Shown here: one piece after another, positions 5,409-33,439 of the stretch
Position numbering within the stretch: the first letter of the stretch is position 1
How the letters are laid out: each line of letters begins with the position of its first letter
From: Candidatus Omnitrophota bacterium
Lineage (GTDB): Bacteria; Omnitrophota; Gorgyraeia; JABMRG01
NCBI GenBank assembly: GCA_030593065.1
Contig: JAUVHV010000001.1
Coordinates: 145,965 to 209,964, forward strand
DNA length: 64,000 bases
Direction of reading: 5' to 3'
Made by a program: the position numbers and the translations under genes
The notes under the pieces: model-generated
The model's input: only the letters and a program-made list of their open reading frames with translations
The model's database searches: none
Told to the model about the DNA's origin: nothing

Positions 5409-5924
5409 ATGCCAAGATGGGATACAATGCATGATTTGCCTACAGGCGGGCAGGCAGGTGGTAGGCATGGAAGAGGGCCGCTGTGGTGGCATGGAAGATT
5501 TCATGGTTGCGGATACAGAATAACTGTACCCAGGCAGGCTATTTTGAATGTATTGAGCAAAACATCAGAGCATTTAAGTGCTGAGGATGTATACATAGCT
5601 GTTCACAAGATATATCCGAACGTTGGCCTTACAACTGTTTATCGTACATTGGAATTACTTGTTCAGATGGGGATTGTTTGCAAAATCGATTTTGGTGATA
5701 AAAGAGCACGATACGAGTTATCAGAAGGGCCGAAAGGTAAAAGACACCATCACCATTTAGTATGCACAAAATGTGGCCGTATTATTGATTATACGGATTT
5801 TATTGATAAGGAGATAGAGCTACTTACTAAAACAGAAAAAGCGCTCGCAAAAAAGCATAATTTTGAAATAAATAACCATCTTATTCAATTTTATGGATTA
5901 TGCAGCGAATGCCGCAAAGAGTAA
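5409..5924 (+). CDS. Fur family transcriptional regulator (Fur/Zur/PerR)
   Basis: ITVPRQAILNVL DNA-binding helix region, HHHH-LVC-TKCG and C-SEC-R metal-binding motifs. N-terminal 30-40 aa are atypical, so the true start may be downstream (e.g. ATG at 5427). Confidence 0.75.
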   Translation: MPRWDTMHDLPTGGQAGGRHGRGPLWWHGRFHGCGYRITVPRQAILNVLSKTSEHLSAEDVYIAVHKIYPNVGLTTVYRTLELLVQMGIVCKIDFGDKRARYELSEGPKGKRHHHHLVCTKCGRIIDYTDFIDKEIELLTKTEKALAKKHNFEINNHLIQFYGLCSECRKE

Positions 5925-18406: not shown

Positions 18407-19363
18407 TTATAGGCAGGCCGTAGTATAGAACGGATATTTCGTAATATAGGCATGCTTTCTGGCCCCCCCCTTTTTAACATTCATTAAATGCCTACTGCGT
18501 AGATTAGTTACATGCCAACACGAAGCACCTTCAAGCTTTGCCATAGATGCCGCAAATACAATATTTCGAAATAGTTGCTCATAAAACAGCGTGGAAGGTT
18601 TGGAGAAGTCAAATATTTGGTTAGTGTCTATAATCTTATTCTTTGTACAGTATCTCTCAATCAGTTTAGAGGCACTCTTGGGTTTTTCACCAATGGAAGA
18701 TTCTTTTTCTTTAGCGATGGGGTTCTTGCTACCAAATTTAGCTTCAATACACACAACAATTTTCTTCGGTACCACAAGCATAATGTCTGGCTCGGTAGCA
18801 AAGTGTTTTATATCGCCTTCTAAGTGATTTCTCATTTCAATTAAAGGTTCATAAGGCACAAATTGGTTATGTTTTAGGTCTATCTTTCCTCCCCATAAGT
18901 ATAAGTCAACATTGTCGTGTATCTCGCGCCTTACTATGTGACTCAATAGCTTCCTCAGGCCATGTCCGGCAGATAACATTTCAGTAAATACGTTATAAGA
19001 CACAGCATCTTCGCTGCTTTCATAACAAAGGCGCCCAAACTCCATCTTGTTGGCCTGTTTAAAGAAATTTGCAACGTAGTAATCTCTATGGAAGGGTAGA
19101 TTGCGTCTCGTGGCAATTACTAAATCTTCTTTGCTTGGTCCGTTGTAATAGACAAAGCCATTATTATGTATTCTTATGGCGTGTTCGGGGCAGAAGGGAA
19201 GGTATCTCATCTTACCCTTGTATCGCTGAAAAGGAACTTTATTAGAATGGATATGTGTGGTACAGTGTTTGACGGGGCATTTACCAAATAGGAGCCTTGT
19301 TTTTTGTAGGTCATTTCGCGTAAGCGATATTGTGCAAGGTGAAGATAATATAGAGTTAGACAC
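18407..19363 (-). CDS. PD-(D/E)xK restriction-endonuclease-like nuclease with N-terminal Cys/His zinc-finger
   Basis: E-P-D-IMLVVPKKIVVC-I-E-A-K matches the PD...ExK catalytic core. N-terminal CPVKHC...CPEH. Contains a G8 (C8 on + strand) homopolymer at 18463-18470 near the 3' end. Confidence 0.5.
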   Translation of the reverse strand: MSNSILSSPCTISLTRNDLQKTRLLFGKCPVKHCTTHIHSNKVPFQRYKGKMRYLPFCPEHAIRIHNNGFVYYNGPSKEDLVIATRRNLPFHRDYYVANFFKQANKMEFGRLCYESSEDAVSYNVFTEMLSAGHGLRKLLSHIVRREIHDNVDLYLWGGKIDLKHNQFVPYEPLIEMRNHLEGDIKHFATEPDIMLVVPKKIVVCIEAKFGSKNPIAKEKESSIGEKPKSASKLIERYCTKNKIIDTNQIFDFSKPSTLFYEQLFRNIVFAASMAKLEGASCWHVTNLRSRHLMNVKKGGARKHAYITKYPFYTTACL

Positions 19364-19428
19364 AATTTATTATACACCGTAGTGTAGTTAGGTGTCAATA
19401 GGTAAAAAACCGTAGCATAATACGGTGT

Positions 19429-19644
19429 ATGCAAAAGAATATACGGTTGCAATTTGCAGAGAAGATTAAGAAGCTACGCAAGAAACTGGGGTATACTCAG
19501 GAAAAGCTTGCTGAGCTGACAAAGATAGACTACAAATATATCCAGCGAATAGAAGGCAAGAATCCACCTGCCGTGAAGATTGATACTATCCAGAGAATTG
19601 CTCAAGCCCTCAAGGTTGACTCATCAAAACTTCTTGACGAATAG
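19429..19644 (+). CDS. XRE-family helix-turn-helix transcriptional regulator (R-M controller-like)
   Basis: 71 aa. LRKKLGYTQEKLAELTKIDYKYIQRIE HTH_3 pattern. Divergent from the nuclease gene. Confidence 0.7.
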   Translation: MQKNIRLQFAEKIKKLRKKLGYTQEKLAELTKIDYKYIQRIEGKNPPAVKIDTIQRIAQALKVDSSKLLDE

Positions 19645-19765
19645 TGTTACCAGCCGAAGCAAATCCAACACTGAGTTTTTAATAGTGTTTTTATAAGAAG
19701 AATGCTATAATGATTTTACTGGCAATACAGATATGTCATAGAGCCTCTTCAAGAAAGGAGTTGGT

Positions 19766-21121
19766 ATGACCCCCATAAGAATTAAACCAATCAGACTTAC
19801 AAATTTACTTCTCAACCAAGACAACCCCAGATTTGACCCCGTAACACACCAAAGAGAAGCCTTGGATTCCGTAGTGAGTACTAAAGTCTTACGGGACAAA
19901 GCAAGATATTTAGCACAAGATATTATAGAAGCTGGGGTTAATCCCGCGGAACTAATTATTGTAGCGGCAGCGATAGATAATAAGCATAAGGTTTTGGAGG
20001 GAAATCGTAGAGTAGCTGTATTAAAGCTACTTGCTAACCCCGAAATTTTCAAAGACAAGCACAAGGCTTTTACGAAGCAAATGAAAAAATTGTCAAACGA
20101 ATTTCGTAAGGCACCTATTAAAACGATACAATGTGTTATTATTACAGATGAATCAGCAGCAAACAGATGGATTAAGTTAAAACATACAGGAGAAAACAAA
20201 GGAAGAGGAACTGTTACTTGGGACGCACAACAAGTAGCAAGATTTGACTCAAGAGTTGCCGATAAATCATCAGTTGGATTACAAGCAATAGATTTTGTTA
20301 AAGGTTTTGCAGATAGCGCTTTGTTAGCTAAAATTAAACACGTGTCTATTACAAACCTTGAAAGACTCTTAACCGACAAAAATATACAGACGGTATTAGG
20401 GGTTACAATCGAAGATGGATTGTTAAGGACGGACCTTTTAAGGGAAGAAGTTAAAAAAGGTCTACATAAGGTTGTTAGCGATATCGCAGAAAAGAAATTA
20501 AAAGTGAAAGATATCTATACGAAAGAAGACAGAAAAGAATACATTGAGGATTTTAAACCGAAAGTAGATATTCCTGACAACAAGAAAAAAGCTGAGAACG
20601 TATGGAGTTTATCTCAGGGAGAACCGCAAAAACCGACTAAACAAAAAAGTAAACAAAAACCTGAACCGCTTTCCACAGATAGAACTGCGATAATCCCACA
20701 ACGTTGTGTTTTGACTATCAAGCCACCCAAAATCAACAAGATATACACAGAGCTTAAGTATTTGAATGTGGATGAGTTTACGAACGCCGGGGGTGTTTTG
20801 TTTCGAGTATTTTTAGAAATGAGCGTGGATGTGTTTATTGACAAGCATGGGATTCCTAAAGTAAGGAAAAAAGATGGGCGGCCATTATCACTACGCGAAA
20901 AATTGAATAATGTGGAAAAATATATGCAAAGCAGCGGGATGGCAACAAAACCCGAATTAAAAGCGGTACGCATTATGGCACAAACGAGAGACAGTATATA
21001 TTCTGTTGATACATTCAATGACTATGTTCACAATCGTCATTTCTCGCCCGATTCTAAAGAATTAAAAACTATATGGGATAATATACAAGTATTTTTTGAA
21101 AAGCTATGGAGCAATGTATAA
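19766..21121 (+). CDS. ParB/Sulfiredoxin N-terminal domain protein with ~330-aa uncharacterised C-terminal region
   Basis: I-R-L-T-N-L-L-L-N-Q-D-N-P-R (ParB box NPR) and E-G-N-R-R-V-A (GxRR) motifs in the first 100 aa. Lys-rich linker. C-terminal domain unknown. Confidence 0.5.
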   Translation: MTPIRIKPIRLTNLLLNQDNPRFDPVTHQREALDSVVSTKVLRDKARYLAQDIIEAGVNPAELIIVAAAIDNKHKVLEGNRRVAVLKLLANPEIFKDKHKAFTKQMKKLSNEFRKAPIKTIQCVIITDESAANRWIKLKHTGENKGRGTVTWDAQQVARFDSRVADKSSVGLQAIDFVKGFADSALLAKIKHVSITNLERLLTDKNIQTVLGVTIEDGLLRTDLLREEVKKGLHKVVSDIAEKKLKVKDIYTKEDRKEYIEDFKPKVDIPDNKKKAENVWSLSQGEPQKPTKQKSKQKPEPLSTDRTAIIPQRCVLTIKPPKINKIYTELKYLNVDEFTNAGGVLFRVFLEMSVDVFIDKHGIPKVRKKDGRPLSLREKLNNVEKYMQSSGMATKPELKAVRIMAQTRDSIYSVDTFNDYVHNRHFSPDSKELKTIWDNIQVFFEKLWSNV

Positions 21122-21124
21122 ACT

Positions 21125-21985
21125 ATGAGATTCAATTCTCCATTAAGATATCCAGGTGGTAAGGGTAAAATGGCGGGTTTTTTTCAATCTGTTATAGCAG
21201 ACAATAATCTTTTTGACGGCATTTATGTCGAACCATATGCGGGTGGAGCATCAGTAGCTTTATCATTGCTTTTTAACGAATATGTCTCAAAGGTGGTCAT
21301 TAATGACATCGACCGTTCTATATATGCTTTTTGGCATTCTGTTTTAAACCATACTGAAAAACTATGTAACTTAATATCAAAAACAGATGTAAATTTTAAA
21401 AACTGGCAAAAGAATAAGGAAATACAAAGACAGAAAAAAACCGCATCATTAGTAGAATTAGGATTTTCTACATTTTTTTTAAATAGGACAAATATATCTG
21501 GCATTATAAAAGGTGGAGTTATAGGAGGGGTGCAACAAAAAGGCAAATGGAAAATAGATGCGCGGTTCAACAAAAACAACTTAATTGGCCGCATACAACG
21601 CATAGCCGAATATAGCAATAGAATCGAATTGCATAATTTAGATGCATGTAAATTATTGCAGAAGCAGGCAAAGCGACTACCTAAGAAGACTATATTTTAT
21701 TTTGACCCCCCGTATTATGCTAAAGGAAAAGATTTATATATCAATCATTATGGCCCAGACGACCATAAAAAAGTTTCCAGTGTAATAAAAAAGATTAAGA
21801 GGCATAGGTGGATTGTTTCGTATGATAATCAATCGGAAATAAAAATGCTTTACAAGGTTTATAGAAAAATGGAATATTGTTTAAAATATAGCGTATCTAA
21901 ACCCAGCGTAGGAACAGAAGTAATGTTTTTTAGCCACAATTTAATAATACCTACAGCCAGCATCCCCGCCGAAACTGCGCGGTAA
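21125..21985 (+). CDS. Dam-family (D12 class) N6-adenine DNA methyltransferase
   Basis: N-terminal YPGGK / EPYAGGASV SAM-binding motifs. Catalytic DPPY (FYFDPPYY). Confidence 0.75.
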   Translation: MRFNSPLRYPGGKGKMAGFFQSVIADNNLFDGIYVEPYAGGASVALSLLFNEYVSKVVINDIDRSIYAFWHSVLNHTEKLCNLISKTDVNFKNWQKNKEIQRQKKTASLVELGFSTFFLNRTNISGIIKGGVIGGVQQKGKWKIDARFNKNNLIGRIQRIAEYSNRIELHNLDACKLLQKQAKRLPKKTIFYFDPPYYAKGKDLYINHYGPDDHKKVSSVIKKIKRHRWIVSYDNQSEIKMLYKVYRKMEYCLKYSVSKPSVGTEVMFFSHNLIIPTASIPAETAR

Positions 21986-22043
21986 ATCAGCTCAAGTTTT
22001 TCAGGAATTTTTTAAAATTCTTGTCAAAAAATTTAATATTTTT

Positions 22044-22087
22044 TAGCCTAACTTGTTATATTGTTTAAAGTTAGGCTTTTTCTTTTT
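22044..22087 (+). terminator. Rho-independent terminator after the MTase gene
   Basis: Stem AGCCTAACT / AGTTAGGCT (9 bp) with a 15-nt loop, followed by TTTTCTTTTT. Confidence 0.5.
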
Positions 22088-22195
22088 CCCTCAAAGTAGC
22101 CATTTCAGCACTTCCTTTCAGAAACTCTTTTCACTAAATAGTTGACAAATTTTAATTTTGGGTGTTTTAACTACTATAGAAACTAAGGAGGTGTC

Positions 22196-22984
22196 ATGCA
22201 TTCTGACAATATTGTGGTGGGTTATGTGCGCGTTTCGACTCAGACACAGGTGCAACATGGAGAGGGATTGGAAATACAAAGACAAAAAATCAAAGAATAT
22301 TGTAGTAAAAGAAAATTACAGTTAAGTAGATTCTATGAAGACAAGGGTATTAGTGGTGCAGTGAAAGATAGGCCGGCATTAATAAACCTATTAAAAGACT
22401 GTGAATCTGGACAAATTAAAAAAGTTATTGTTTATAAGCAGGATAGATTGAGCAGAGAGCTCGGTGTGTCAATGTGGCTTGAGACTCAGTTCAAAAAATA
22501 CAATATTGAACTAATCTCTATTTTTGAGCCAGAATTTGATACAGATGACCCTATGGGCAAGGCACTAAAAAGGATAATAAGCGTATTCGCAGAACTTGAG
22601 AGAGATATTATTGCTTCTCGGCTCCGTGATGGCAGAGAGAACAATGCAAAGAATGGTCAGCGCGGTTCTGGGCCAATACCCTTTGGATACCTAAAAGAGG
22701 GCGATGACTTGGTAATTTGTCCAGATGAAGCAAAGTGGGTTTATAAGATTTATAGATGGCGTGTTAAAGGCCTTAGATATTCAGAGATTGTCAATAGGCT
22801 TAATAAGAATGGCATTAGGACTAAAAGAGGTAAATTATTTCATACAGAAGCTGTTAAATACATACTACAGAACGAATTATATTATGGAGCAACTAACTTT
22901 GGCCTACTTAAAAGCAAGGGTATCCATGAGCCAATAGTAAGCAAAAGGATATTTTTTAAGGTAAAAACAGAAAAAAATAGGTAA
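22196..22984 (+). CDS. Serine recombinase (resolvase/invertase N-domain plus partial recombinase domain), probably C-terminally truncated
   Basis: VGYVRVSTQTQ with catalytic Ser, resolvase fold, start of the recombinase domain (GYLKEGDDLVICPDEAKWVYKIY). At 262 aa it is far shorter than large serine recombinases, and no downstream zinc-ribbon or coiled-coil coding sequence is visible. Confidence 0.65.
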   Translation: MHSDNIVVGYVRVSTQTQVQHGEGLEIQRQKIKEYCSKRKLQLSRFYEDKGISGAVKDRPALINLLKDCESGQIKKVIVYKQDRLSRELGVSMWLETQFKKYNIELISIFEPEFDTDDPMGKALKRIISVFAELERDIIASRLRDGRENNAKNGQRGSGPIPFGYLKEGDDLVICPDEAKWVYKIYRWRVKGLRYSEIVNRLNKNGIRTKRGKLFHTEAVKYILQNELYYGATNFGLLKSKGIHEPIVSKRIFFKVKTEKNR

Positions 22985-23220
22985 GTGAGCTCTCTGGAAA
23001 GGGGTTTATAGGTATAATAATTAGGGAGTAGGAAACACAAGGAGCCCAACAAAGGCTTCACCAAATGCTCATTTTGAGTATGGGGCTTGTATCAGAGTAT
23101 GCATAGAGAGGGCAAAAATATTTTTACTCATTGAAAACAAAGAAGTTACGTCAAAAAAGCCACAAATCGTATTAAACTTTTTTGGCTAAATAGGTATAAT
23201 AAGGTAAAGGAGGTGTAGGA

Positions 23221-23403
23221 ATGACATCAGCAGACATTTTAATGGTAGAGGATATAGCTCAGATTTTAAGGATATCGCAGAATACGATACACAGTAGGCG
23301 ATGGCAGGAGAAGTCCGGCTGTCCCCTTTTCAAGAAGGGTAAACGGCTCTATGCTATAGCTACAGAGTTTTGGAGATGGTTTAGGAGCGATTCGGTAAAA
23401 TGA
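23221..23403 (+). CDS. Excisionase / DNA-binding HTH protein (Xis-like)
   Basis: 60 aa. LMVEDIAQILRISQNTIHSRRWQEK resembles the excisionase-family MerR-like HTH. Overlaps the start of the integrase gene by 4 nt. Confidence 0.5.
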   Translation: MTSADILMVEDIAQILRISQNTIHSRRWQEKSGCPLFKKGKRLYAIATEFWRWFRSDSVK

Positions 23404-24491
23404 AGAATAGAGATGGCGTCAGACAGTTAGGAAAGGGCTTATATGAGGTGAACTTTCGCCCTTTCCCTGGCGCTGATAGGATCTTTAGGAGAGTTAATGT
23501 TCAATCTTTGCAGGAGGCTCGTATAAAAAGAGCAGAGCTATTAGCAGAAAGTAGTCGTTTAGGCAAGCCTTCTGAGTTGCAAAGGACGAGACAGGATAGC
23601 GATATAATTGAATTACAGAAGGTTATAGAAAATGACCTGCTTTCAGATAATAAAGGCAAGAAGACAATTAATAGATTTATATCTTGCTGGAAGACTTTTA
23701 ACCAATTCTTGCGGAAGAAATATTCTGATATAGTTAGTATCAATGAATTGAAAGCAGGTCATTTTAAAGATTATCAAGACTACATTGTTATAGAAAAGCA
23801 AAGAAAGAAAGGCTGGAGAGCAGAGCTTACTATTTTAAAGGCTATTTTTACACGTCTCAGAATAAGGAATTATTGCACAGATGATGCGATAGGAGAGTTA
23901 AATAAGCTAAAGAAGCCACCACGCAACAAAAAGCACTATGAGGATATTCCTGATTTTGCTATAAGAGAAATGCTGACATTTATCGATAAAGATAGGCCAG
24001 ATTATTATGGCCTAACAGTTTTGCTCTATAAATGCGGCTGGCGAATAGAGGAGACGACGCTATTACGCAGAGCAGATATAGAATGGCAAGGGCTTAAGCC
24101 AGGTTCGATATTAATTAGAGGGGAGACCACAAAAACAAAAGTAGAGAGACGTTTTGACATGTTTGATGATGAGTTAGCTCTTGTGATAAGGCGCTATGCA
24201 TTTGATAGAAAAAAGACCACGTGGCTTTTTTCTAATAAGCAAAATGGCAAGATACATGCTGGTCATTATAGAGAATATCTGAAAAAGGTAAGTGGAAATA
24301 TTATGGGAAAAACTATCACGCCTCATTATTTTAGGCATAGACTTTGCACCATAGCAGGTAGAATGAATATGCCGATTAATGATGTTATGGCAATAACGGG
24401 CATACGTGATATAAAGGTTCTTTTGGAATACTACCAGCACACTACAGCAGAGGGGAAAGCGAAAATATTAGCTTTAAATAGCTTAAAGTGA
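23400..24491 (+). CDS. Tyrosine-type site-specific integrase
   Basis: C-terminal catalytic region with R...HxxR...Y (TPHYFRHRLCT ... LLEYYQH). SAM-like N-terminal domain. 363 aa. Confidence 0.8.
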   Translation: MKNRDGVRQLGKGLYEVNFRPFPGADRIFRRVNVQSLQEARIKRAELLAESSRLGKPSELQRTRQDSDIIELQKVIENDLLSDNKGKKTINRFISCWKTFNQFLRKKYSDIVSINELKAGHFKDYQDYIVIEKQRKKGWRAELTILKAIFTRLRIRNYCTDDAIGELNKLKKPPRNKKHYEDIPDFAIREMLTFIDKDRPDYYGLTVLLYKCGWRIEETTLLRRADIEWQGLKPGSILIRGETTKTKVERRFDMFDDELALVIRRYAFDRKKTTWLFSNKQNGKIHAGHYREYLKKVSGNIMGKTITPHYFRHRLCTIAGRMNMPINDVMAITGIRDIKVLLEYYQHTTAEGKAKILALNSLK

Positions 24492-24507
24492 TATAATTAC
24501 AATATAG

Positions 24508-25389
24508 TTGGGAAAGGAGACCAATAATATGTTTATGAAAATATTAGTGATAGGGCTGTTTTTAATCGCAGGTTTATTATTATTACTTACAGCAACTTGG
24601 TTTTATGAATTACCAATTTTACCCTTAAAGAAAATTGTGGGTGCATTAAAAACTCATGAAATAACACTAATGGCTTTATTTAACTTATTTGTAATAGTTA
24701 TAATGTTAATAACTATATTTATAAGTATGGTTTCTTCCCAACAGCAGATTGAAAAGATGCAGGACCAAATTAAATCCGATAAAAAAAATACAGATAGCTA
24801 TATTACTACAACAAAAGATGCTACAGATAAGCAAATAAAAGCTATAAAAGACGCCACTAATAGTCATATAGAAAGGCTTGCAGAAGAGCAGAAGAGAAGA
24901 AGAAAAGAGCTACTGTCAGCTTTGATTTCTGAAATCCAATCTAATATTGAAGAAGGGGATTATTTTTTAAAGCACTTACCACTTACAGAAGATGGGATAA
25001 TATTTTATAATGACTTACCACTTGATATTTTAAACATTAATTTATCTAACAATACGATTACAAGCAAAGTACTATTTGATAAAATTAGAGAATACAAAAA
25101 GGTAATAGTGACGGCTAACAATATGATTCTGAGGGGCAGAGAAAGCGATGTTGATAGATATAACAAAACACAAGAGTTAGTTGGTAAGTGGGAAGGAGCA
25201 AAGAAAGATAGGGATTACAAGTTTGATGACAGCTCTATTAAAGAGATAGATTCTATTCTCTCTAAATTGCCTGAAAAGATTCAAACGCGTAGATGCGAAC
25301 TTTTTCTTATAACGTTTAACTTGATAGGTAATAAGTATAACTTTGTTGATTTGAAACTGAAACTTATAAATTATATGAATGACTTGTAG
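24508..25389 (+). CDS. Hypothetical membrane protein (2 TM plus coiled coil plus unknown C-terminal domain), cargo adjacent to attR
   Basis: Two N-terminal TM helices, a ~70-aa coiled coil (QQQIEKMQDQIKSDKK...), and a C-terminal globular region with no recognisable motif. Confidence 0.3.
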   Translation: MGKETNNMFMKILVIGLFLIAGLLLLLTATWFYELPILPLKKIVGALKTHEITLMALFNLFVIVIMLITIFISMVSSQQQIEKMQDQIKSDKKNTDSYITTTKDATDKQIKAIKDATNSHIERLAEEQKRRRKELLSALISEIQSNIEEGDYFLKHLPLTEDGIIFYNDLPLDILNINLSNNTITSKVLFDKIREYKKVIVTANNMILRGRESDVDRYNKTQELVGKWEGAKKDRDYKFDDSSIKEIDSILSKLPEKIQTRRCELFLITFNLIGNKYNFVDLKLKLINYMNDL

Positions 25390-25453
25390 CAGACTTGAAA
25401 TTTTGGTGGTTTTAACGGTGGTGGGAAGGCTATTTTGAGCTTAAAGCAATGAC

Positions 25454-25472
25454 AATCCCTGCCTCTCCGCCA
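25454..25472 (+). repeat. attR: 19-bp direct repeat of the tRNA-Ser(GGA) 3' end
   Basis: AATCCCTGCCTCTCCGCCA identical to 17240-17258. Confidence 0.8.
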
Positions 25473-25586
25473 CTGGCTCGATGAAAAAAATTCCGTATAT
25501 CCCGTATATAATGATAGGGATTTTTTCTTGACATGATTATTGAATAAGAGTATATTTTTATTTAGACCAGGCAGAAGAGAAGCGCT

Positions 25587-27530
25587 ATGAAGATAGCAAA
25601 TAAAATAACCTTTTCGTTTTTTATAACAGCACTTGTGCTTACAAGTATTGTGGCATCTGTTTTTTATTTTATAGCCAGAGACAACCTGGAAAGAGCTATA
25701 TCTGAGCACCTAAAAACCGCTATCCAGAAAACAGTATTCCAAGTCGATACATTTCTCAAGATGAACTTAGAGAAAGTCGAGCAATTTTCAAAAAGTGCCA
25801 TAATCAGGCGCCTCCTGCAAACAAAAAGAGAAAATAAAGATTATAAAAGTAGATTAAACGATGTTACGCAAAGATTGAAAAGTATAAAAAGCGTTAGCAG
25901 GTATCTGTACGATTTTTTTGTTATGGATAGAGACGGGATAGTTGTTGTTTCAACTGATGAGAAAGATATAGGAAAAGACAGGGGCGCTGATTCTTATTTT
26001 GTAAGCGCTAAAAAAAGCCCCTTTACAAAATCCGCTTATGTATCACGACACAAGAAAAAGGGTTCTTTAGTTTTCTTCATCCCCTTTATAAATGATACAA
26101 CAGGAGAGTTCCTTGGCATACTTGCCGCCAGAAGCACTGTGGAAGGTTTGAATAAAATAACCACAGACAGAACCGGCCTTGGCAAAACAGGCGAAATTTA
26201 CATCATAAATAAAGACGGCTACATGATAACCCCGTCCCTGTTTGTAGGGGATGCTTTTTTAAAGCAAAAAGTCGATACGGAAAATACAAGGAGAGCTTTT
26301 GAAGATATCAAGGAATTCGGCCGAAAAGTGTATTTACGAAAATTTCACAAACCCTTCATATATAGCGATTATCGTGGTATAAAAGTTTTGGGAATACACG
26401 AGCATATATTTCGAACAGAATGGATTGTTTTCGCGGAAATTGACAAGAAAGAAGCCTTTGCGCCCCTTGCGGCACTAAAGCTTATTTTGCTTTCCGTGCT
26501 GATTTTTGTGCCTCTGGCAGCATGGATAATCGGTGTATTTGTTTCACGAATTATTTCGGAGCCGATTTGCAAATTGCATAAGGGAACAGAAATAATCGGT
26601 AGTGGAAACCTGAATTATAAAACCGCCATAACTTCAAAAGACGAAATTGGCCAGCTTTCAAGGGCGTTTGACAAAATGACCAATAATTTGAAAGAGACAG
26701 TAGCTAGCCTTCAATGGGAGATTGGCAAACACAGGAAGGCAGAAGACGCTCTCCAGAATACATACAGGAAACTTAAAGATGCCCAGCAACAACTTATTGA
26801 ATCAGAGAAATTACGGGTTGTTGGACAAATAGCAAGTGGAGTAGCCCATGAAGTGAGGAATCCTTTAGGAATAATAATGCAGGTTATTAATTATATTGAG
26901 AATAAAATAATGCCTATGGAAGAAGACATCTCTAAAGCTTTGGGCATGGCCAAGAATAGCGTAAAGAGAGCCGACAAGATTATAAGTGCGTTGCTCAATA
27001 TTCCGAAAGCCACAAAACTGGAATTGCATCCAGAAAGGATAAACTCTCTTTTGGAAAGCTCTTTAAGTTTAATAAAAGATAAAATAAAAAATATTAAAAT
27101 TATTAAGGAAACGGAAAGTGGCTTACCTAAGGTTTTGGTAGATAAGAACAAATTGGAGCAGGTTTTTATTAATCTATTTTTGAATTCAGCTGACGCGATG
27201 CCTAAAACGGGCAGCCTGGTTATTCGCAGTTATGATAAAGAGTTTAAAGAAATAAAAAACAGCAAGCTTGCAAAAGATGTTGGTTTTTTTGAACCAGGGG
27301 AGCAAGTAGTGGTAGTAGAGATAGAAGATACGGGTATGGGTATATCTGAAGAGAACCAGAAGAAGATTTTTGATCCTTTTTTTACCACAAAAAGTTCAAG
27401 CAAAGGAACAGGCCTGGGCTTGTTTATGAGTAAGAAAATAATCGATAAGCACAATTGCTTGATAGGCATAGAAAGCCATTTGGGTAAGGGTACTAAAGTG
27501 ACTATTGTTTTAAAAATTATTGAGAGGTGA
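25587..27530 (+). CDS. Sensor histidine kinase with periplasmic Cache-like domain, HAMP, HisKA and HATPase
   Basis: Two TM segments flank a ~270-aa extracytoplasmic domain (ADRTGLGKTGEIYIINKDGY). H-box SGVAHEVRNPL. N/G boxes (NLFLNSADAM, DTGMGI, GTGLGL). Confidence 0.8.
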   Translation: MKIANKITFSFFITALVLTSIVASVFYFIARDNLERAISEHLKTAIQKTVFQVDTFLKMNLEKVEQFSKSAIIRRLLQTKRENKDYKSRLNDVTQRLKSIKSVSRYLYDFFVMDRDGIVVVSTDEKDIGKDRGADSYFVSAKKSPFTKSAYVSRHKKKGSLVFFIPFINDTTGEFLGILAARSTVEGLNKITTDRTGLGKTGEIYIINKDGYMITPSLFVGDAFLKQKVDTENTRRAFEDIKEFGRKVYLRKFHKPFIYSDYRGIKVLGIHEHIFRTEWIVFAEIDKKEAFAPLAALKLILLSVLIFVPLAAWIIGVFVSRIISEPICKLHKGTEIIGSGNLNYKTAITSKDEIGQLSRAFDKMTNNLKETVASLQWEIGKHRKAEDALQNTYRKLKDAQQQLIESEKLRVVGQIASGVAHEVRNPLGIIMQVINYIENKIMPMEEDISKALGMAKNSVKRADKIISALLNIPKATKLELHPERINSLLESSLSLIKDKIKNIKIIKETESGLPKVLVDKNKLEQVFINLFLNSADAMPKTGSLVIRSYDKEFKEIKNSKLAKDVGFFEPGEQVVVVEIEDTGMGISEENQKKIFDPFFTTKSSSKGTGLGLFMSKKIIDKHNCLIGIESHLGKGTKVTIVLKIIER

Positions 27531-27533
27531 AAC

Positions 27534-27920
27534 ATGGACAGAAAAAAAATATTGATTATTGACGACGAGGCAGACTTTTGCATGTTTGTTAAAATGAATT
27601 TGGAATTGGGATCTAAATTTGAAGTAGAGATAGCTTTAAGCGGCAAAGAAGGCATTGAATTGGCTAAAAGGATAAAGCCGGATCTGATTCTTTTGGATAT
27701 AATAATGCCAGAGATGGACGGTTTTGAAGTTTTGGCGAGATTAAAAAAAGATAAAAATACTATAGCGATTCCCGTTGTTATGCTTACAGCCAGAACAGAT
27801 GATACCTCTAAACTAAGAGCTTCTATGCTATACGACGAAAAATATCTTACAAAAACAATCGAGACTTCTCAGTTAAAAACAGAGATAGAAGAAGTCTTGC
27901 GCAGGAGAGGGAATATATAA
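27534..27920 (+). CDS. Response regulator, receiver domain only
   Basis: ILIIDDE, phospho-acceptor D in LILLDIIMP, T and K motifs. 128 aa with no output domain. Confidence 0.75.
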   Translation: MDRKKILIIDDEADFCMFVKMNLELGSKFEVEIALSGKEGIELAKRIKPDLILLDIIMPEMDGFEVLARLKKDKNTIAIPVVMLTARTDDTSKLRASMLYDEKYLTKTIETSQLKTEIEEVLRRRGNI

Positions 27921-28039
27921 TATATTTTATTTGATCAATATCCAAAGGGTAAGGAATATATTGATAAAACAGCTTGAAATCAGCAATTTTTAAGGTTATA
28001 ATAAAAAAGTTTTGAATTTAGAATCGCAAATGGTGAAAA

Positions 28040-29479
28040 ATGAAATATAAACATGCTTTATTCTTAAATCCGTATATTGAAAGTACCGCAACAAGCATCA
28101 TGGGCCTTTTTCCACCTACAGGCCTTGAGTATGTTGCTACCGGCGCCAAGGGCCTTGTGGATAAAATAACTCTTCTCGACTTAAGATATGAAAGAGATTT
28201 TTGCGATCCCGATAAATTGCTCGATTTTATACGTAAGGAAATAGATATTATATGCGTTAGCATCGGGTGGGACCGTCAATTTAAAGAAATCTGCGGCCTG
28301 CTAAACCTAATGCCGGATAATATACCTTTGGTCGTGGGTGGGTATAAAGCGACGGAGCAAGTTGAGGAGCTCTTTCGGGCTTGTTCGAAAATAAATATTA
28401 TCGTAAGAGGCGAGGGAGAAGAGACGATAAAAGAGGTACTAAAAGGGTTGCCGCTTGAAAATATTTTGGGTATTTCTTATAAAATAGATAACAAAGTGAT
28501 TCATAATAAGAACAGGCCTTTACAGGAAGTAGATGCCATAGCGACACCTGACCGCAATTTAAGGCGATATAAATACCGCTTGATATTAAACGGTATCAAC
28601 GTGACAAACTCAACATTTGATACAGTCTTGAGCGCGAGAGGGTGCCCTTTTAACTGCAAGTTTTGCACATTCAGTTTGAATCCGCTTGGACAAAAAAGAC
28701 AATACGCGGCACGCAGCGTTGAATCTGTTATCAAAGAGATAGAACAGATAACCGCTAATACCGTACTTTTCAGCGATGACAACTTTTTCACAAACATAAA
28801 AAGGGCAGAGGAGATTTGTGATTTAATAATAGCGCGCAAAATAAAAAAACGTTTCATAGCGCAGGCGCGTATTGAAATAGCGAGATACCCTAATCTTTTA
28901 AGCAAAATGGTCCAGGCGGGATTCAAGATACTCTTGATGGGCATAGAATCTCCGCATGATCGTATCCTGACTGAGCTTAATAAGGGTTTTGATACAGATA
29001 CCATAAGAAAATGTTTTGAGGTACTTAAAAAATACCCAATTTATTACCATGGTTACTTTATTTATGGCAACATAGGTGAGACCGAGGAAGAGATGTTATG
29101 TATATCGAAATTCGCAAAGGAGATAAGCCTTGACTCCATTACTTTCCAGAAGTTAAGAATAGAGAAATTTTCGCCCCTTAGAAAAATAGCGGAAGAGACA
29201 CCAGGTTACCATGTTACTGACAGAGGTGAACTTTACTCGGATACTTATAGCCACGCTGCCTTAAAGAAGATAGGTAGAAAGATAAAATTTTCTTTTTATA
29301 CACCAACCGCCCTTTTAAGAATATTGAAGAAATTTATGGCAATGAGATTTTTTAGTCTTAGTGAAGTTATGTCATTTATATCAGTAATCCCCCGCTTGCT
29401 AAAAGGTGTAATAGCTCGGGAGATAGAAAAGAACCGCCTTAAAGATTCCTTGAAACGCATATTTATAAAGAATACATAG
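28040..29479 (+). CDS. B12-binding domain radical SAM protein
   Basis: N-terminal cobalamin-binding-like Rossmann (IDIICVSIGW). CPFNCKFC (Cx3Cx2C) radical SAM cluster motif. Confidence 0.7.
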   Translation: MKYKHALFLNPYIESTATSIMGLFPPTGLEYVATGAKGLVDKITLLDLRYERDFCDPDKLLDFIRKEIDIICVSIGWDRQFKEICGLLNLMPDNIPLVVGGYKATEQVEELFRACSKINIIVRGEGEETIKEVLKGLPLENILGISYKIDNKVIHNKNRPLQEVDAIATPDRNLRRYKYRLILNGINVTNSTFDTVLSARGCPFNCKFCTFSLNPLGQKRQYAARSVESVIKEIEQITANTVLFSDDNFFTNIKRAEEICDLIIARKIKKRFIAQARIEIARYPNLLSKMVQAGFKILLMGIESPHDRILTELNKGFDTDTIRKCFEVLKKYPIYYHGYFIYGNIGETEEEMLCISKFAKEISLDSITFQKLRIEKFSPLRKIAEETPGYHVTDRGELYSDTYSHAALKKIGRKIKFSFYTPTALLRILKKFMAMRFFSLSEVMSFISVIPRLLKGVIAREIEKNRLKDSLKRIFIKNT

Positions 29480-29533
29480 CGAGAAGCAATAGTTGTATAC
29501 AACGTCACCCAACGATGTTAACATGGAGAAAAG

Positions 29534-30742
29534 ATGAAACAGACGCCACGCCAGACAAATGCTTCGTTTTACGGCCTCGGGATTGCCCCGAGAATACTGG
29601 ATATACTGGATCGAATGAAGTTTACCGTTCCTACGCCCATTCAGCACAAGACCATACCCATTGCCATAGAAGACAAAGATATTATAGGGGTCGCGCAGAC
29701 CGGCACTGGTAAGACACTTGCTTTTACTATCCCTATTATTCAGAGACTTTCCCAGAGAAGAGGCCGTGCGCTCATTCTTGTACCTACCAGAGAACTTGCT
29801 ATTCAGGTTAATGAGACATTTGAGAAGATTGCCTCGCCATTTGGCATAAAGACAGCTGTTATTATAGGCGGCGCATCCATGCATTTGCAGCTAAAAGCAC
29901 TAAGAAAAAACCCGCGTGTTCTGGTTGCTACTCCCGGACGCCTTGTCGACCATATGGAGCGGGGTACAGTTCTTTTGGCTGATATAAATGTTCTGGTTCT
30001 GGATGAGGCGGATCGCATGCTTGACATGGGATTTCTGCCGCAGATTGAAAAAATCATTAAATTTATTCCACGAAACAAACAGACCATGTTTTTTTCAGCG
30101 ACTATACCGGCAGAGATCGTGAAGATGGCAGCCGCGCACATGAAGCTTCCTATACATGTTGAAGTTGCCCCCTCAGGGACTACCGCTGAGCGTGTTATAC
30201 AGGAAGTCTTTATTATTAAGAGAAGCTCAAAACATCAGCTTTTAATGAAGCTGCTTAACCGCTATCATGGCCCGGTACTTATCTTCTCCCGGACAAAAAT
30301 AGGCGCCAGAAAGATCACACGCGATTTACAGCGGACGAATCACAGAGCTGCTGAGATTCACTCAAACCGTTCACTCATCCAGAGAAAAGAGGCCTTGAAT
30401 GGTTTTAAATCAGGAAAGTATAAGATACTTGTTGCCACTGATATTGCCGCCAGGGGCATCGATGTTACAGGCATAGAGCTTGTTATAAACTATGATCTCC
30501 CGGATGACACTGAGAATTATGTACATCGTATCGGCCGTACAGCCCGCGCCGGGCACGAAGGCCGCGCTATATCTTTCGCGACCCCTGAGCAGGGCAAGGA
30601 TGTTAAAAATATTGAAAAACTTATTAAGACCGCGCTTCCGATAGTAGAACACCCGGGATTTCCAAAAGAGAAATTTATTAGAGAGCCAAAATACCACCAG
30701 AGCCCAAAACCGTATAAAGGAAGACGAAGAAGGCGCAACTGA
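29534..30742 (+). CDS. DEAD-box ATP-dependent RNA helicase
   Basis: Q-motif, AQTGTGKT (I), PTRELA (Ia), DEAD (II), SAT (III), HRIGRTAR (VI), basic C-terminal tail. Confidence 0.85.
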   Translation: MKQTPRQTNASFYGLGIAPRILDILDRMKFTVPTPIQHKTIPIAIEDKDIIGVAQTGTGKTLAFTIPIIQRLSQRRGRALILVPTRELAIQVNETFEKIASPFGIKTAVIIGGASMHLQLKALRKNPRVLVATPGRLVDHMERGTVLLADINVLVLDEADRMLDMGFLPQIEKIIKFIPRNKQTMFFSATIPAEIVKMAAAHMKLPIHVEVAPSGTTAERVIQEVFIIKRSSKHQLLMKLLNRYHGPVLIFSRTKIGARKITRDLQRTNHRAAEIHSNRSLIQRKEALNGFKSGKYKILVATDIAARGIDVTGIELVINYDLPDDTENYVHRIGRTARAGHEGRAISFATPEQGKDVKNIEKLIKTALPIVEHPGFPKEKFIREPKYHQSPKPYKGRRRRRN

Positions 30743-30770: not shown

Positions 30771-32648
30771 ATGAGAATAACTACAAAAATAACTTTTTCT
30801 TTTTTGCTATTGATGATTTTGATTATGGCTCTGGCAATGTCTGCTTTGTATGTAGTAGGTAAAAGATACATGACTAACGCCATATTTGACCATTTAATTA
30901 CTACCAGCGAGGCAAGGGCAGATAACATTGATACATACTTAGAGATGCAGAAGATTATAGTAAAACAATTATCTGAATGCATACTTTTGGAAAGGTTTTT
31001 ATCCACAAGCAGGGAGGCTTCTAATTATGTTGAGAGATTAAGAATAGCTACAGAAAGGTTGAAAAGGATACAAGAGGTCAATGAAGATCTCTTTTATGAA
31101 TGTTTCATCATGAATAAGGAGGGCAGAATAGTCGCTTCCAGTAATATGGGTTCGGTTGGACTGGATAGGGCGGATGATGCCTACTTTTTAGGGGCAAAGA
31201 AGGAAGGAGTTTATATTAAGGATGCTTATTATTCTAAGATTACGAAACAAGCCTCATTAACATTTTCCGCGCCAATCATAAATCGTAAAACAGGAGAATT
31301 TTTAGGTGTAGTTGTTAACAGGGTTAGTTTAAGTTCGCTAAATAAAATAACCGCTGACCGAACCGGCCTGGGTGAGACAGGAGAGACGTATTTAGTAAAT
31401 AAGAACGGATATATATTAACCCAATCTCGTTTTGTAGACAATGCCCCTCTTGCATTAATGGTCATTTCTAAGATCAGAAGAGATGACCTTGATCATGATA
31501 GAAGAGTTAGCACGGTATCGCATATATATAATTCTCATATATATACAAATTATAATGGTATTAAAGTATTGGGCGTATGTGCCCGTATTTCCAGGATGCA
31601 GTGGTGCCTCTTGACTGAGATCAGCACAAGCGAAGCATTTGCGCCTTTGCACAGATTAAATTTTGTTTTGCTTGCTATAACGATTTTAGCGCTGGTACTA
31701 ACCTGGCTGGCAGGGAGATTTGCCGCAAGACTCATTGCCGAACCTATTTATCAATTACATAGAGGTACTGAGATAATCGGCCAGGGAGATCTCGATTATA
31801 AAGTAGATATGAAAGCAGATGACGAAATCGGTGCTCTCTCAAAGGCGTTTGACAAAATGACCGGGAATTTGAAAAAGACCACTACCTCAATAGTCAGTCT
31901 CGAGATGGAGGTTGTTGAGCGCAAGAAAGCGGAGGAAGAAGCGAAAAAAGCCGTGCAGATTAAATCTGAATTTATCTCTATGGTTTCGCATGAGTTGAGG
32001 ACCCCGCTTACTGTAATAAAAGAGGGCATTGCCATGACTTTAGACGGCTTAGCAGGCCCGCTGAATGATGAGCAGAGAGATTTCCTGGTTGCGGCAAAGA
32101 GAAATGTAGACAGGCTTACCAGATTGATCAATAATATCCTGGATTTCCAAAAACTGGAATCCGGGAAAGTGGATTTTAATATTGAAAAAGATGATATAAA
32201 TGAGGTTATTAAGGTTGTCCAGAAAGAGCTGGCTTACCAGGCAAAGGAGAAAGGCTTGGATCTTATTCTCAAGCTTGGTGAAAATCTACCCATGATAAAA
32301 TTTGATAGAGATAAAATTACCCAGGTCCTAATGAATCTTATCAATAATTCCATTAAATTTACTGATAAAGGAAGTATTACAATAAGTACCACCCAAGAAG
32401 GCAATGTTATTGGTGTTTCAGTAAAAGATACCGGCATTGGCATTGAAAAAAAAGAGATTCCAAGGCTATTCCATAAATTCGAACAGGTATCAAAAACCGA
32501 GGATAAAAGAACTGGCGGGACAGGATTGGGCCTGGCCATTTCAAAAGAGATCATCGTAATCCATAAAGGTAAAATTTGGGTAGAATCAGAACTGGGCAGA
32601 GGTGCTACATTTTATTTTGTTTTGCCTGTCAAGGAACGAAGAGGTTAG
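30771..32648 (+). CDS. Sensor histidine kinase with periplasmic Cache-like domain (paralogue of 25587)
   Basis: ADRTGLGETGETYLVNKNGY ligand-domain motif shared with 25587. H-box SHELRTPL. HATPase N/G boxes. Confidence 0.8.
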   Translation: MRITTKITFSFLLLMILIMALAMSALYVVGKRYMTNAIFDHLITTSEARADNIDTYLEMQKIIVKQLSECILLERFLSTSREASNYVERLRIATERLKRIQEVNEDLFYECFIMNKEGRIVASSNMGSVGLDRADDAYFLGAKKEGVYIKDAYYSKITKQASLTFSAPIINRKTGEFLGVVVNRVSLSSLNKITADRTGLGETGETYLVNKNGYILTQSRFVDNAPLALMVISKIRRDDLDHDRRVSTVSHIYNSHIYTNYNGIKVLGVCARISRMQWCLLTEISTSEAFAPLHRLNFVLLAITILALVLTWLAGRFAARLIAEPIYQLHRGTEIIGQGDLDYKVDMKADDEIGALSKAFDKMTGNLKKTTTSIVSLEMEVVERKKAEEEAKKAVQIKSEFISMVSHELRTPLTVIKEGIAMTLDGLAGPLNDEQRDFLVAAKRNVDRLTRLINNILDFQKLESGKVDFNIEKDDINEVIKVVQKELAYQAKEKGLDLILKLGENLPMIKFDRDKITQVLMNLINNSIKFTDKGSITISTTQEGNVIGVSVKDTGIGIEKKEIPRLFHKFEQVSKTEDKRTGGTGLGLAISKEIIVIHKGKIWVESELGRGATFYFVLPVKERRG

Positions 32649-32649
32649 T

Positions 32650-33018
32650 ATGGCAAAAAAGATATTGGTTGTTGATGATGAGCCTGATATTCTTAAAATT
32701 ATTACATTCAGGTTGAAAAATGAAGGCTATGAAGTTATAGCAGCGAAGAATGGCCAGGAAGCCCTTGATTTAGTGAACAGGGAGATGCCCGATTTAGTGC
32801 TTTTGGATCTGCGCCTGCCTGTTATCAGCGGATATAAGGTCTGCGAAATCTTAAAGGCAGATAAAAACCTGAAACAGATACCAATTGTTTTTTTAACGGC
32901 GAGTGTTATAAAAGGCAACATTGCAAAAAAGGCAAAGGAATTCAAGGCGGACGGTTACCTGATAAAACCATTCGACCCAATAAAATTATTGGAAACAGTA
33001 AAGAGACTTATAAAATGA
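32650..33018 (+). CDS. Response regulator, receiver domain only
   Basis: MAKKILVVDDEPD... The ORF-track 5' extension from 32602 overlaps the kinase gene. The ATG at 32650 follows the kinase stop. Confidence 0.7.
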   Translation: MAKKILVVDDEPDILKIITFRLKNEGYEVIAAKNGQEALDLVNREMPDLVLLDLRLPVISGYKVCEILKADKNLKQIPIVFLTASVIKGNIAKKAKEFKADGYLIKPFDPIKLLETVKRLIK

Positions 33019-33061
33019 TGGGCGCAGGATACAAATTATAAGTATATATGGGGGGGTAGGT

Positions 33062-33439
33062 GTGAGTCAGCATAAAATATTGATAGTAGATGATGAGGAA
33101 GATCTTGTTACAATGATAAAGTTGAGGCTTGAGGCAGCGGGATATGATACGCTTGAGGCATATGATGGCCAGGAAGCGCTTAAAAAGGCACAGGATCAAA
33201 ATCCTGATCTTATTATACTTGACCTTATGCTTCCAAAGATGAATGGATATAAGGTATGCAGAATGTTAAAGTTCAATGAGAAATACCGGCATATTCCTAT
33301 TATCATGTTTACAGCTAAAGTACAAGATACAGACAAGCAGATGGGCCAGAAAGTGGGCGCTGATGCATATATAATTAAGCCTTTTGAACCGGATATTTTG
33401 CTTGGTAAGATAAGGGAGTTATTGTTTCAACACAACTAA
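33062..33439 (+). CDS. Response regulator, receiver domain only
   Basis: KILIVDDEED, LIILDLMLP, conserved K in IIKPF. GTG start. Confidence 0.7.
   Translation: MSQHKILIVDDEEDLVTMIKLRLEAAGYDTLEAYDGQEALKKAQDQNPDLIILDLMLPKMNGYKVCRMLKFNEKYRHIPIIMFTAKVQDTDKQMGQKVGADAYIIKPFEPDILLGKIRELLFQHN

What the first reader, a model, noticed from the sequence alone, without database searches (positions are those of the whole stretch)
18455..18480. C8/G8 homopolymer tract inside the nuclease gene where a +1 slip swaps a 17-aa for a 60-aa C-terminus
Positions 18463-18470 are CCCCCCCC (GGGGGGGG on the coding minus strand, encoding KKGG). A second minus-strand ORF (18274-18480) starts exactly at this tract in another frame. 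With G9 the nuclease would read through into it, giving about 360 aa. Homopolymer-mediated phase variation of R-M genes is established in Helicobacter and Neisseria. Alternatively this is an assembly or sequencing error.
Basis: seen in the sequence. Interest (0 to 1): 0.6.

Follow-up and report, generated by a model that had tools for sequence, protein, structure and literature searches.

The report
Frameshifted nuclease gene at a G8 run
A run of eight G's breaks the reading frame of an otherwise well-conserved DNA-cutting enzyme gene on a small mobile island; it looks like an ordinary recent slippage mutation that switched the gene off, and nothing shows it is an evolved on/off switch.

Summary
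The tract is real. C8 lies at window 18463-18470, which is G8 preceded by A5 on the coding minus strand. It sits exactly where a 318-aa ORF (18407-19363) and a 68-aa ORF (18274-18480) change frame. Removing one base (G7, or A4) or adding two (G10) joins the ORFs into a 362/363-aa protein; G9 gives a third frame of 335 aa.

The restored protein is the conserved form. 344 homologues were found; most of the 120 best are 350-370 aa, 55-75% identical, and cover 98-99% of it. Its C-terminal 62 aa are as conserved as the core. Only the restored protein passes Pfam PF22558 (REase-ARP, a PD-(D/E)xK nuclease).

None of 83 homologous sequences has a G run longer than 6 at this site, and none is frameshifted there. 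The window has no other G/C run of 8 or more. Fifty-six of 67 homopolymers of 7 or more bases lie in intact ORFs. A separate Logan assembly of SRR18936876 also shows G8.

Best reading: a recent, genuine slippage frameshift that truncates the nuclease. It could revert, but it is not a conserved contingency tract. The gene sits with a divergent HTH regulator on an 8.2-kb island at tRNA-Ser. The adjacent methylase belongs to a PD-lambda-5-like pair. Read pileups are still needed.

The parts
18463..18470 (-). G8 homopolymer (C8 on + strand), the frame junction
   Evidence: tblastn segments change frame here
18471..18475 (-). A5 run immediately 5' of the G8. Loss of one A would also restore the frame and gives KRGGPES, matching the family consensus KRG
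   Evidence: inference
18407..19363 (-). Truncated nuclease ORF as it stands (318 aa from GTG 19363; NCBI call P0121 is 267 aa from M52). It keeps the N-terminal Cys/His cluster and the catalytic E191-P-D193...E207-A-K209
   Evidence: no Pfam hit on its own
18274..18462 (-). Out-of-frame remnant encoding the conserved C-terminal 62 aa (PESMPILRNIRS...CNRAFNIF). It is open and 59-83% identical to full-length homologues
18274..19363 (-). Whole REase-ARP family (PF22558) nuclease gene, interrupted by a +1 nt frameshift
19369..19398 (-). 12/12 consensus sigma-70 promoter (TTGACA-18-TATAAT) ending 5 nt before GTG 19363. It is overlapped by the inverted repeat ACACCGTA/TACGGTGT, a putative operator
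   Evidence: operator role inferred
19429..19644 (+). Divergent 71-aa HTH regulator (C-protein-like). The same divergent pairing with a nuclease homologue is seen in L058 and L067
19766..21985 (+). PD-Lambda-5-like pair: 451-aa A protein (19766-21121) and Dam-like D12 methylase B (21125-21985). This is context, not shown to be part of the nuclease module
17240..25472 (.). About 8.2-kb integrated island bounded by a 19-nt exact direct repeat of the tRNA-Ser(GGA) 3' end (17240-17258 and 25454-25472). It carries a Rep-like gene, the nuclease, the HTH, PD-Lambda-5, a serine recombinase and a tyrosine integrase

Best explanation
The gene at 18274-19363(-) encodes a PD-(D/E)xK nuclease of Pfam family REase-ARP with an N-terminal Cys/His cluster. 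It is carried on a tRNA-Ser-integrated island together with a divergent HTH regulator. Its normal product is about 360 aa.

In this genome one extra base has been added within the A5G8 purine run. The most likely event is G7 to G8 by slipped-strand mispairing during replication; A4 to A5 is the less likely alternative. Translation therefore leaves the conserved frame after residue 300 and stops 18 codons later. The catalytic core is kept, but the conserved 62-aa C-terminal subdomain is lost.

The event is recent, because the out-of-frame tail is still open and as conserved as the core. It most likely inactivates or cripples the nuclease. A run of eight G's is intrinsically slippage-prone, so reversion (G8 to G7) can occur. 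However, the tract is a lineage-specific accident of codon choice (AAG GGG GGG for K-G-G) in a variable surface loop. It is not a conserved, selected contingency switch.

Shown: the anatomy, which frame is conserved, the absence of the tract in relatives, and the same G8 in two assemblies. Inferred: the slippage origin, the loss of function and the recency.
For: Frame arithmetic: G7 gives 362 aa, G10 gives 363 aa, G8 gives 318 aa and G9 gives 335 aa.

Pfam PF22558 scores 29.4 bits (cut-off 27) on the restored protein. The match covers residues 189-351 and profile positions 121-268 of 270. The 318-aa and 68-aa ORFs give no hit.

344 homologues were found. Most of the 120 best are 350-370 aa and cover 98-99% of the restored protein at 55-75% identity. 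All full-length sequences in the alignment read K[KR]GxPESMPI...AFNI in one frame.

Tail identity to full-length homologues is 59-83% in all but one, against 61-76% for the core. The tail holds invariant residues L310 W323 E324 Y343 K347 F355 across 64 sequences.

None of 83 homologous sequences in the fetched loci has a G run longer than 6 at the site (51 have 2, 20 have 3, 8 have 4, 2 have 5, 1 has 6). None changes frame there.

The AF2 model of homologue P0001 has pLDDT 89.3. Its only low-confidence stretches are 100-105 and 290-297. The second reads MNLKRGEP and is the tract position, a loop between the core and a C-terminal helical subdomain.

Other family members are disrupted at other positions: L046 at an A6 run, L085 near a C5 run, L069 truncated. 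Sporadic decay of this gene is therefore normal.

The assembly is not prone to homopolymer errors. 56 of 67 runs of 7 or more, and 11 of 12 runs of 8 or more, lie inside intact long ORFs. Logan contigs of SRR18936876 match the window 100% over 1,701 and 9,828 nt, including the G8.

GGG is the rarest Gly codon here (16%), and only 1 of 62 Gly-Gly pairs elsewhere in the window is GGGGGG.
Against: No read-level data are available. The Logan contigs probably come from the same reads as the genome record, so G8 has been seen in one sample only. Loss of function is inferred from conservation, not tested, because the catalytic residues all lie upstream of the break. A G8 run is at the length where phase variation is known in some bacteria; PMC3936762 regards reactivation as likely for runs longer than 8 bp. 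A functional switch therefore cannot be excluded. Whether the extra base is a G or an A cannot be decided.
Confidence: 0.6

Rival explanations
1. Selected phase-variable (contingency) switch. The G tract is maintained because reversible G7/G8 slippage turns a costly or self-toxic nuclease ON and OFF in the population, as in Helicobacter, Neisseria and Campylobacter restriction genes.
For: G8 lies inside a defence-type gene on a mobile island. One-base changes toggle between the full-length and truncated product. The tail is perfectly preserved, as expected if the OFF state is transient. AAG GGG GGG uses the rarest Gly codon twice. Homopolymer switching of R-M genes is documented (PMC3936762).
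Against: The tract is absent from all 83 homologous sequences examined, including the closest, at about 73% identity. No length variant of this allele is on record among 5.8 billion protein clusters; the only near-identical hits are the G8 forms P0115 and P0121. The tract lies at 82% of the ORF. It is the only G/C run of 8 or more in 64 kb. G8 is at the low end of known switching lengths.
Confidence: 0.15
2. Sequencing or assembly artefact. The true sequence is G7 (or A4G8) and the gene is intact.
For: The break is a single base in a homopolymer, which is the classic indel-error context. The downstream frame is flawless. The NCBI genome contig and the Logan contigs are probably built from the same reads.
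Against: Two different assemblers give G8. The Logan contig runs through the tract without a break. 56 of 67 homopolymers of 7 or more bases sit in intact ORFs, including a 2,953-aa ORF. Eleven and a half kb of Logan sequence is 100% identical to the window, which implies accurate reads.
Confidence: 0.17
3. Programmed recoding. Full-length nuclease is made from the G8 template at a low level by +1 ribosomal frameshifting on GGG GGG G, or by transcriptional slippage that drops one G. This would throttle expression of a toxic enzyme.
For: The run allows re-pairing of tRNA-Gly in the +1 frame, and homopolymers support RNA polymerase slippage (established knowledge, not tested here). The gene has a 12/12 consensus promoter, so attenuation could be useful.
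Against: No homologue shares a frameshift or a slippery run at this site. No stimulatory element was identified. The 0-frame A-site codon after the tract (GCC) is neither a stop codon nor an obviously rare one. Known slippage sites are mostly A/T runs of 9 or more.
Confidence: 0.04
4. Functional split gene. The 318-aa core and a separately translated 68-aa tail (ATG 18480) associate to give an active enzyme.
For: An in-frame ATG lies 10 nt upstream of the tract. The break falls in a flexible loop between two subdomains.
Against: There is no convincing ribosome-binding site before ATG 18480 (read by eye). The ATG lies inside the translated upstream ORF. No homologue is split this way.
Confidence: 0.04

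Closest known systems
Slippage frameshifts in homopolymers of restriction/defence genes (e.g. H. pylori JHP1272/HP1353-1354, HP1471; PMC3936762)
   Same: A G/C homopolymer lies inside a nuclease-type defence gene, and a one-base length change decides between the full-length and truncated product. The mechanism is slipped-strand mispairing.
   Different: In those cases the tracts are longer (up to 13-14), recur in orthologues of several strains, and length variants were observed. Here the tract is unique to one lineage, only one length has been seen, and the host is an uncultivated environmental bacterium.
Pfam PF22558 REase-ARP (PD-(D/E)xK restriction-endonuclease-fold family)
   Different: The gene as sequenced is frameshifted and fails the cut-off. 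What 'ARP' is, and whether it is present here, could not be established. There is no close solved structure (best sequence E-value 0.38).
C-protein-controlled type II R-M systems
   Same: A small HTH with best PADLOC match 'Control_protein' (4.7e-15) lies next to a nuclease gene. The shared intergenic region has a strong promoter overlapped by inverted repeats.
   Different: The HTH is divergent from the nuclease, not upstream and co-transcribed with it. No cognate methylase has been assigned, and in homologous loci a methylase is usually absent (3 of 86, crude scan).
PD-lambda-5 (Vassallo et al. 2022, PMC9519451)
   Same: The adjacent 451-aa protein and the Dam-like methylase match PD-Lambda-5_A (3.6e-143) and PD-Lambda-5_B (9e-125).
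   Different: PD-lambda-5 is a neighbour of the finding, not the finding itself. The frameshifted nuclease is not a component of PD-lambda-5.

Membership tests
Pfam PF22558 REase-ARP | Score at or above the gathering cut-off (27 bits) | tested here: met
   The restored G7 protein scores 29.4 bits, E 8.1e-07. The 318-aa ORF as sequenced gives no hit. 109 of the 120 listed homologues carry PF22558.
Pfam PF22558 REase-ARP | PD-(D/E)xK catalytic motif and restriction-endonuclease fold | tested here: met
Pfam PF22558 REase-ARP | Genomic association with 'ARP' | not tested
   The meaning of ARP was not found. Neighbourhoods of 86 loci are heterogeneous.
Phase-variable contingency locus (simple-sequence repeat) | Hypermutable repeat within the ORF whose length sets the reading frame | tested here: met
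   G8 lies in the ORF. G7 and G10 give the full-length product; G8 and G9 give truncated products.
Phase-variable contingency locus (simple-sequence repeat) | Observed tract-length polymorphism within or between populations | not testable with these tools
   Only G8 was seen, in the window/NCBI record and in Logan SRR18936876. No reads are available.
Phase-variable contingency locus (simple-sequence repeat) | Tract retained in orthologues, or the genome enriched in such tracts | tested here: not met
   None of 83 homologous sequences has a G run longer than 6 at the site. There is one G/C run of 8 or more in 64 kb, and the G7 at 33050 is intergenic.
Type II restriction-modification system | Cognate DNA methyltransferase encoded beside the nuclease | tested here: inconclusive
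   A Dam-like methylase lies 1.8 kb away, but it matches PD-Lambda-5_B and is paired with PD-Lambda-5_A. Methylase-motif ORFs occur within 3 kb in 3 of 86 loci. The regex is crude and could miss some C5 methylases.
Programmed frameshift / transcriptional slippage gene | Frameshift site conserved among homologues | tested here: not met
   Every homologue that spans the site reads through it in one frame. Frameshifts in L046, L085 and L088 are at other places.
PD-lambda-5 defence system (neighbouring genes) | A and B proteins adjacent and co-directional | tested here: met
   19766-21121 matches PD-Lambda-5_A at 3.6e-143 and 21125-21985 matches PD-Lambda-5_B at 9e-125.

The most novel reading that the evidence does not exclude
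The G8 (or A5G8) run is a working ON/OFF or throttling device for a solitary, possibly modification-dependent nuclease on a mobile island. It would act either by reversible slippage in the population or by low-level +1 recoding. It might have been selected because the island also carries a Dam-like methylase (PD-lambda-5 B) whose marks the nuclease would attack. The published PD-lambda-5 could only be studied in a host lacking the mrr region. This would be homopolymer phase variation resolving a conflict between two defence systems in an uncultivated environmental lineage.
Probability: 0.12. Interest if true: 0.55.

Novelty: new member of a known kind. Interest (0 to 1): 0.25.

Why it matters
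If it is simply a recent frameshift, the practical value is annotation. The two ORFs should be joined and flagged as one disrupted REase-ARP nuclease, about 362 aa when repaired, not left as a 267/318-aa 'hypothetical protein'.

It also gives a clean, datable example of how solitary nuclease genes on small tRNA-integrated defence islands are silenced.

If reads showed mixed tract lengths, it would extend homopolymer phase variation of defence nucleases beyond host-adapted pathogens. It would also make the idea of nuclease/methylase incompatibility within one island testable.

Tried and rejected
- Looked for a G7 allele or other strains. Exact-protein look-ups of the 318-aa ORF, the HTH, P0115 and P0124 returned only Logan SRR18936876 contigs identical to the window. 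The NCBI contig could not be fetched. A viral-contig scan for the tract found nothing.
- Tested whether homologues of 311 aa were C-terminally truncated like the window. They are not; they only start at the internal Met52.
- P0094 (295 aa) ends exactly at KRG and looked like a second hit at the same site. Its contig L091 is a fold-back, with the C-terminal part present in reverse complement. It is probably a chimeric contig and was not used as evidence.
- L070's match ends at residue 295. It is a divergent homologue that continues in frame, not a break.
- The G7 run at 33050-33056 was suspected as a second frameshift. It lies between two complete receiver-domain genes.
- Searching the literature for 'REase-ARP' or ARP gave nothing.
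- PADLOC, NCBIfam and PHROGs give no hit for the nuclease. A PDB sequence search gives no relative.
- No conserved neighbour or methylase partner was found.
- The organism was not identified. Nuclease relatives come mostly from Omnitrophota, with some from Brocadiia, Nitrospirota, Planctomycetota and other phyla, but the gene is mobile.

Full report
OBSERVATION. On the + strand, 18463-18470 is CCCCCCCC. The coding (minus) strand reads ...AAT GTT AAA AAG GGG GGG GCC AGA AAG CAT..., so A5 (18475-18471) is followed by G8 (18470-18463). ORF 18407-19363(-) is 318 aa and ends ...NVKKGG-ARKHAYITKYPFYTTACL. ORF 18274-18480(-) is 68 aa (MLKRGGPESMPILRN...AFNIF) and lies in the frame displaced by one base.

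Editing the run in silico gives these products: G7 362 aa, G10 363 aa, G8 318 aa, G9 335 aa in a third frame, and G6 334 aa. The frames are joined by loss of one base or gain of two. Loss of one A from the A5 run works as well and gives KRGGPES, the family consensus.

This is the only G/C run of 8 or more in the 64-kb window, which has 38% G+C; only two G/C runs reach 7. However, 52% of first-order Markov simulations contain such a run. The run alone is not remarkable. Its position at a frame junction is.

WHICH FRAME IS THE REAL PROTEIN.
- The restored 362-aa sequence matches Pfam PF22558 (REase-ARP, 'Restriction Endonuclease associating with ARP') at 29.4 bits against a cut-off of 27. The match covers residues 189-351 and profile positions 121-268 of 270, so it runs straight across the tract. 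The 318-aa and 68-aa ORFs taken separately give no Pfam hit.
- A search of 5.8 billion protein clusters found 344 homologues. Most of the 120 best are 350-370 aa, 55-75% identical, and cover 98-99% of the restored protein.
- All full-length homologues in the alignment read ...NLRNQHVMNLK[KR]GxPESMPIMRNIRSIL...WYLKNKSLxCGRAFNI in one frame. The 311-aa homologues merely start at the internal Met52.
- The out-of-frame tail (residues 300-362) is 59-83% identical to all but one full-length homologue (48% for the most distant, P0107). The core (52-296) is 61-76% identical. In a 64-sequence alignment the tail contains invariant L310, W323, E324, Y343, K347 and F355.
- The long C-terminus is therefore the conserved, selected one, and the break is evolutionarily recent or not real.

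IS THE TRACT CONSERVED? I fetched 87 homologous loci (69 metagenomic, 18 genomic) and extracted the codons aligned to residues 289-306, which gave 83 sequences. The longest G run at the site is 2 in 51 sequences, 3 in 20, 4 in 8, 5 in 2 and 6 in 1. Every locus that spans the site is in a single frame there. The fourth residue of K-[KR]-G-x is variable (K/R/E/G/Q/M).

An AlphaFold2 model of the 75%-identical homologue P0001 (pLDDT 89.3, pTM 0.89) has only two low-confidence stretches. One is 290-297 (MNLKRGEP), exactly the tract position. It forms a loop between the nuclease core and a C-terminal subdomain of four helices and one strand.

The G run is thus a lineage-specific result of encoding K-G-G as AAG GGG GGG in a poorly constrained loop. 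GGG is the rarest Gly codon here (16%), and only 1 of 62 Gly-Gly pairs elsewhere in the window is GGGGGG.

IS IT AN ARTEFACT?
- The window appears to come from an NCBI contig of 242,868 nt. There the gene was called as a 267-aa protein (P0121, from Met52) with the same short tail.
- Logan contigs of run SRR18936876 are 100% identical to window 18180-19880 and 19861-29688, and they contain G8. This is a second assembler, but probably the same reads.
- The window is 89% coding with contiguous genes. 56 of 67 homopolymers of 7 or more bases, and 11 of 12 of 8 or more, lie in intact long ORFs, including one of 2,953 aa.
- The other G run (G7, 33050-33056) is intergenic between two complete receiver-domain genes.
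- A systematic homopolymer error problem is therefore unlikely, but a single-site error or a mixed population cannot be excluded without reads.
- No G7 allele of this lineage exists in the protein collection or in viral contigs.

The gene has a 12/12 consensus sigma-70 promoter (19398 to 19369) ending 5 nt before GTG 19363. The promoter is overlapped by the inverted repeat ACACCGTA/TACGGTGT.

Divergent from the nuclease is a 71-aa HTH whose best PADLOC match is 'Control_protein' (4.7e-15). HTH homologues of 76-79% identity sit next to nuclease homologues on the opposite strand in L058 and L067. In L058 the spacing is about 73 nt, as in the window.

The next two genes match PD-Lambda-5_A (3.6e-143) and PD-Lambda-5_B (9e-125; a Dam-like D12 methylase). 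PD-lambda-5 is described as a compacted RM+Abi system that was studied in a host lacking the mrr region (PMC9519451). The methylase therefore has its own partner.

In the other loci the nuclease has no constant neighbour. It sits next to recombinases, next to a small ~105-aa ORF, or between housekeeping genes. A crude motif scan finds an N6/N4 methylase-like ORF within 3 kb in only 3 of 86 loci. Calling it an 'R-M gene' is thus not established. A solitary, possibly modification-dependent, nuclease is at least as likely; this is inference.

The whole region, 17240-25472, is an 8.2-kb island bounded by a 19-nt exact repeat of the tRNA-Ser(GGA) 3' end. It carries a Rep-like gene, a serine recombinase and a tyrosine integrase. 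Islands with the same backbone but different cargo, and with an intact nuclease, occur in L002, L003 and L005; L006 shares both recombinases.

INTERPRETATION.
- Best supported (about 0.6): a genuine, recent +1-nt slippage mutation in the A5G8 run removes the conserved C-terminal subdomain and most likely disables the nuclease. Sporadic disruption of this family is seen elsewhere at other positions: L046 at an A6 run, L085 near a C5 run, L069 truncated. Reversion is possible because G8 is slippage-prone, but nothing indicates a selected switch.
- Rivals: a true contingency locus (0.15), an assembly or sequencing error (0.17), programmed recoding (0.04) and a functional split gene (0.04).
- Homopolymer switching of restriction genes is well documented (PMC3936762). 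Even the rival is therefore a known kind.
- The most novel reading not excluded is that the frameshift resolves an incompatibility between this nuclease and the island's Dam-like methylase. That rests on one locus and an analogy with mrr.

VERDICT. The long C-terminus is the conserved one. Phase variation is not supported by comparative data and cannot be tested without reads. This is an ordinary frameshifted nuclease gene and a new example of a known kind, with interest of about 0.25.

Noticed in passing
window 19766-21985: Complete PD-lambda-5-like two-gene defence system. The 451-aa A protein matches at E 3.6e-143 and the Dam-like methylase B at 9e-125. It lies in an environmental, non-enterobacterial genome, co-directional with the HTH gene.
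   Followed up: partly
window 17240-17258 and 25454-25472: A 19-nt exact direct repeat (AATCCCTGCCTCTCCGCCA) of the tRNA-Ser(GGA) 3' end bounds an ~8.2-kb integrated island. The island carries a Rep-like gene (17402-17956), a serine recombinase (22196-22984) and a tyrosine integrase (23400-24491). L002, L003 and L005 share all three backbone genes, and L006 both recombinases, but carry other cargo (a RelA/SpoT-domain protein, a Cas2-like protein, an SDH-type protease, an AAA_15 ATPase).
   Followed up: partly
window 19363-19429: Divergent promoter region between the nuclease and the HTH. It has a 12/12 consensus TTGACA-18-TATAAT promoter for the nuclease, and inverted repeats ACACCGTA/TACGGTGT plus an ACCGTA-N6-TACGGT hairpin. 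Both start codons lie 5-8 nt after the -10 elements, which suggests leaderless transcripts.
   Followed up: partly
L091 860-1216 (JGI Ga0247389_10318123; protein P0094): A 67%-identical homologue stops right after ...NLKRG, the codon position of the window's tract. The contig then continues as the reverse complement of the C-terminal part plus 18 nt of downstream sequence. This is either a fold-back chimeric contig or a real inversion whose junction falls at the same spot.
   Followed up: partly
window 18154-18203: Exact 25-nt tandem duplication (CAAAAACAGGTAGGTTCACAACAAT x2) in the spacer between the nuclease stop and the Rep-like gene. The Logan contig ends inside it.
   Followed up: no
L046 ~3210; L085 ~5570-5600; L069 ~4260; L088: Other members of the nuclease family are disrupted at different places: an A6 run in L046, near a C5 run in L085, a truncation after about residue 190 in L069, and several shifts in the L088 contig.
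   Followed up: partly
window 33050-33056: The only other G/C run of 7 or more (G7). It lies 5 nt upstream of the GTG start of a receiver-domain gene (33062-33439) and after another one (32602-33018). It is probably a G-rich ribosome-binding site, not a frameshift.
   Followed up: yes
window 49990-58851: Uninterrupted 2,953-aa ORF next to a type IV pilus gene cluster (PilB-like 37050-38735, PilM-like 45459-47108). It was not characterised.
   Followed up: no
L005 4678-4995, L007, L010, L048, L049, L073, L074: In 8 loci a small ~105-aa ORF abuts or overlaps the start of the nuclease homologue (separated by -12 to +6 nt). It has no Pfam hit and only a weak PADLOC SspB match at 3.7e-05. It may be an alternative partner or regulator, and it is absent from the window.
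   Followed up: partly
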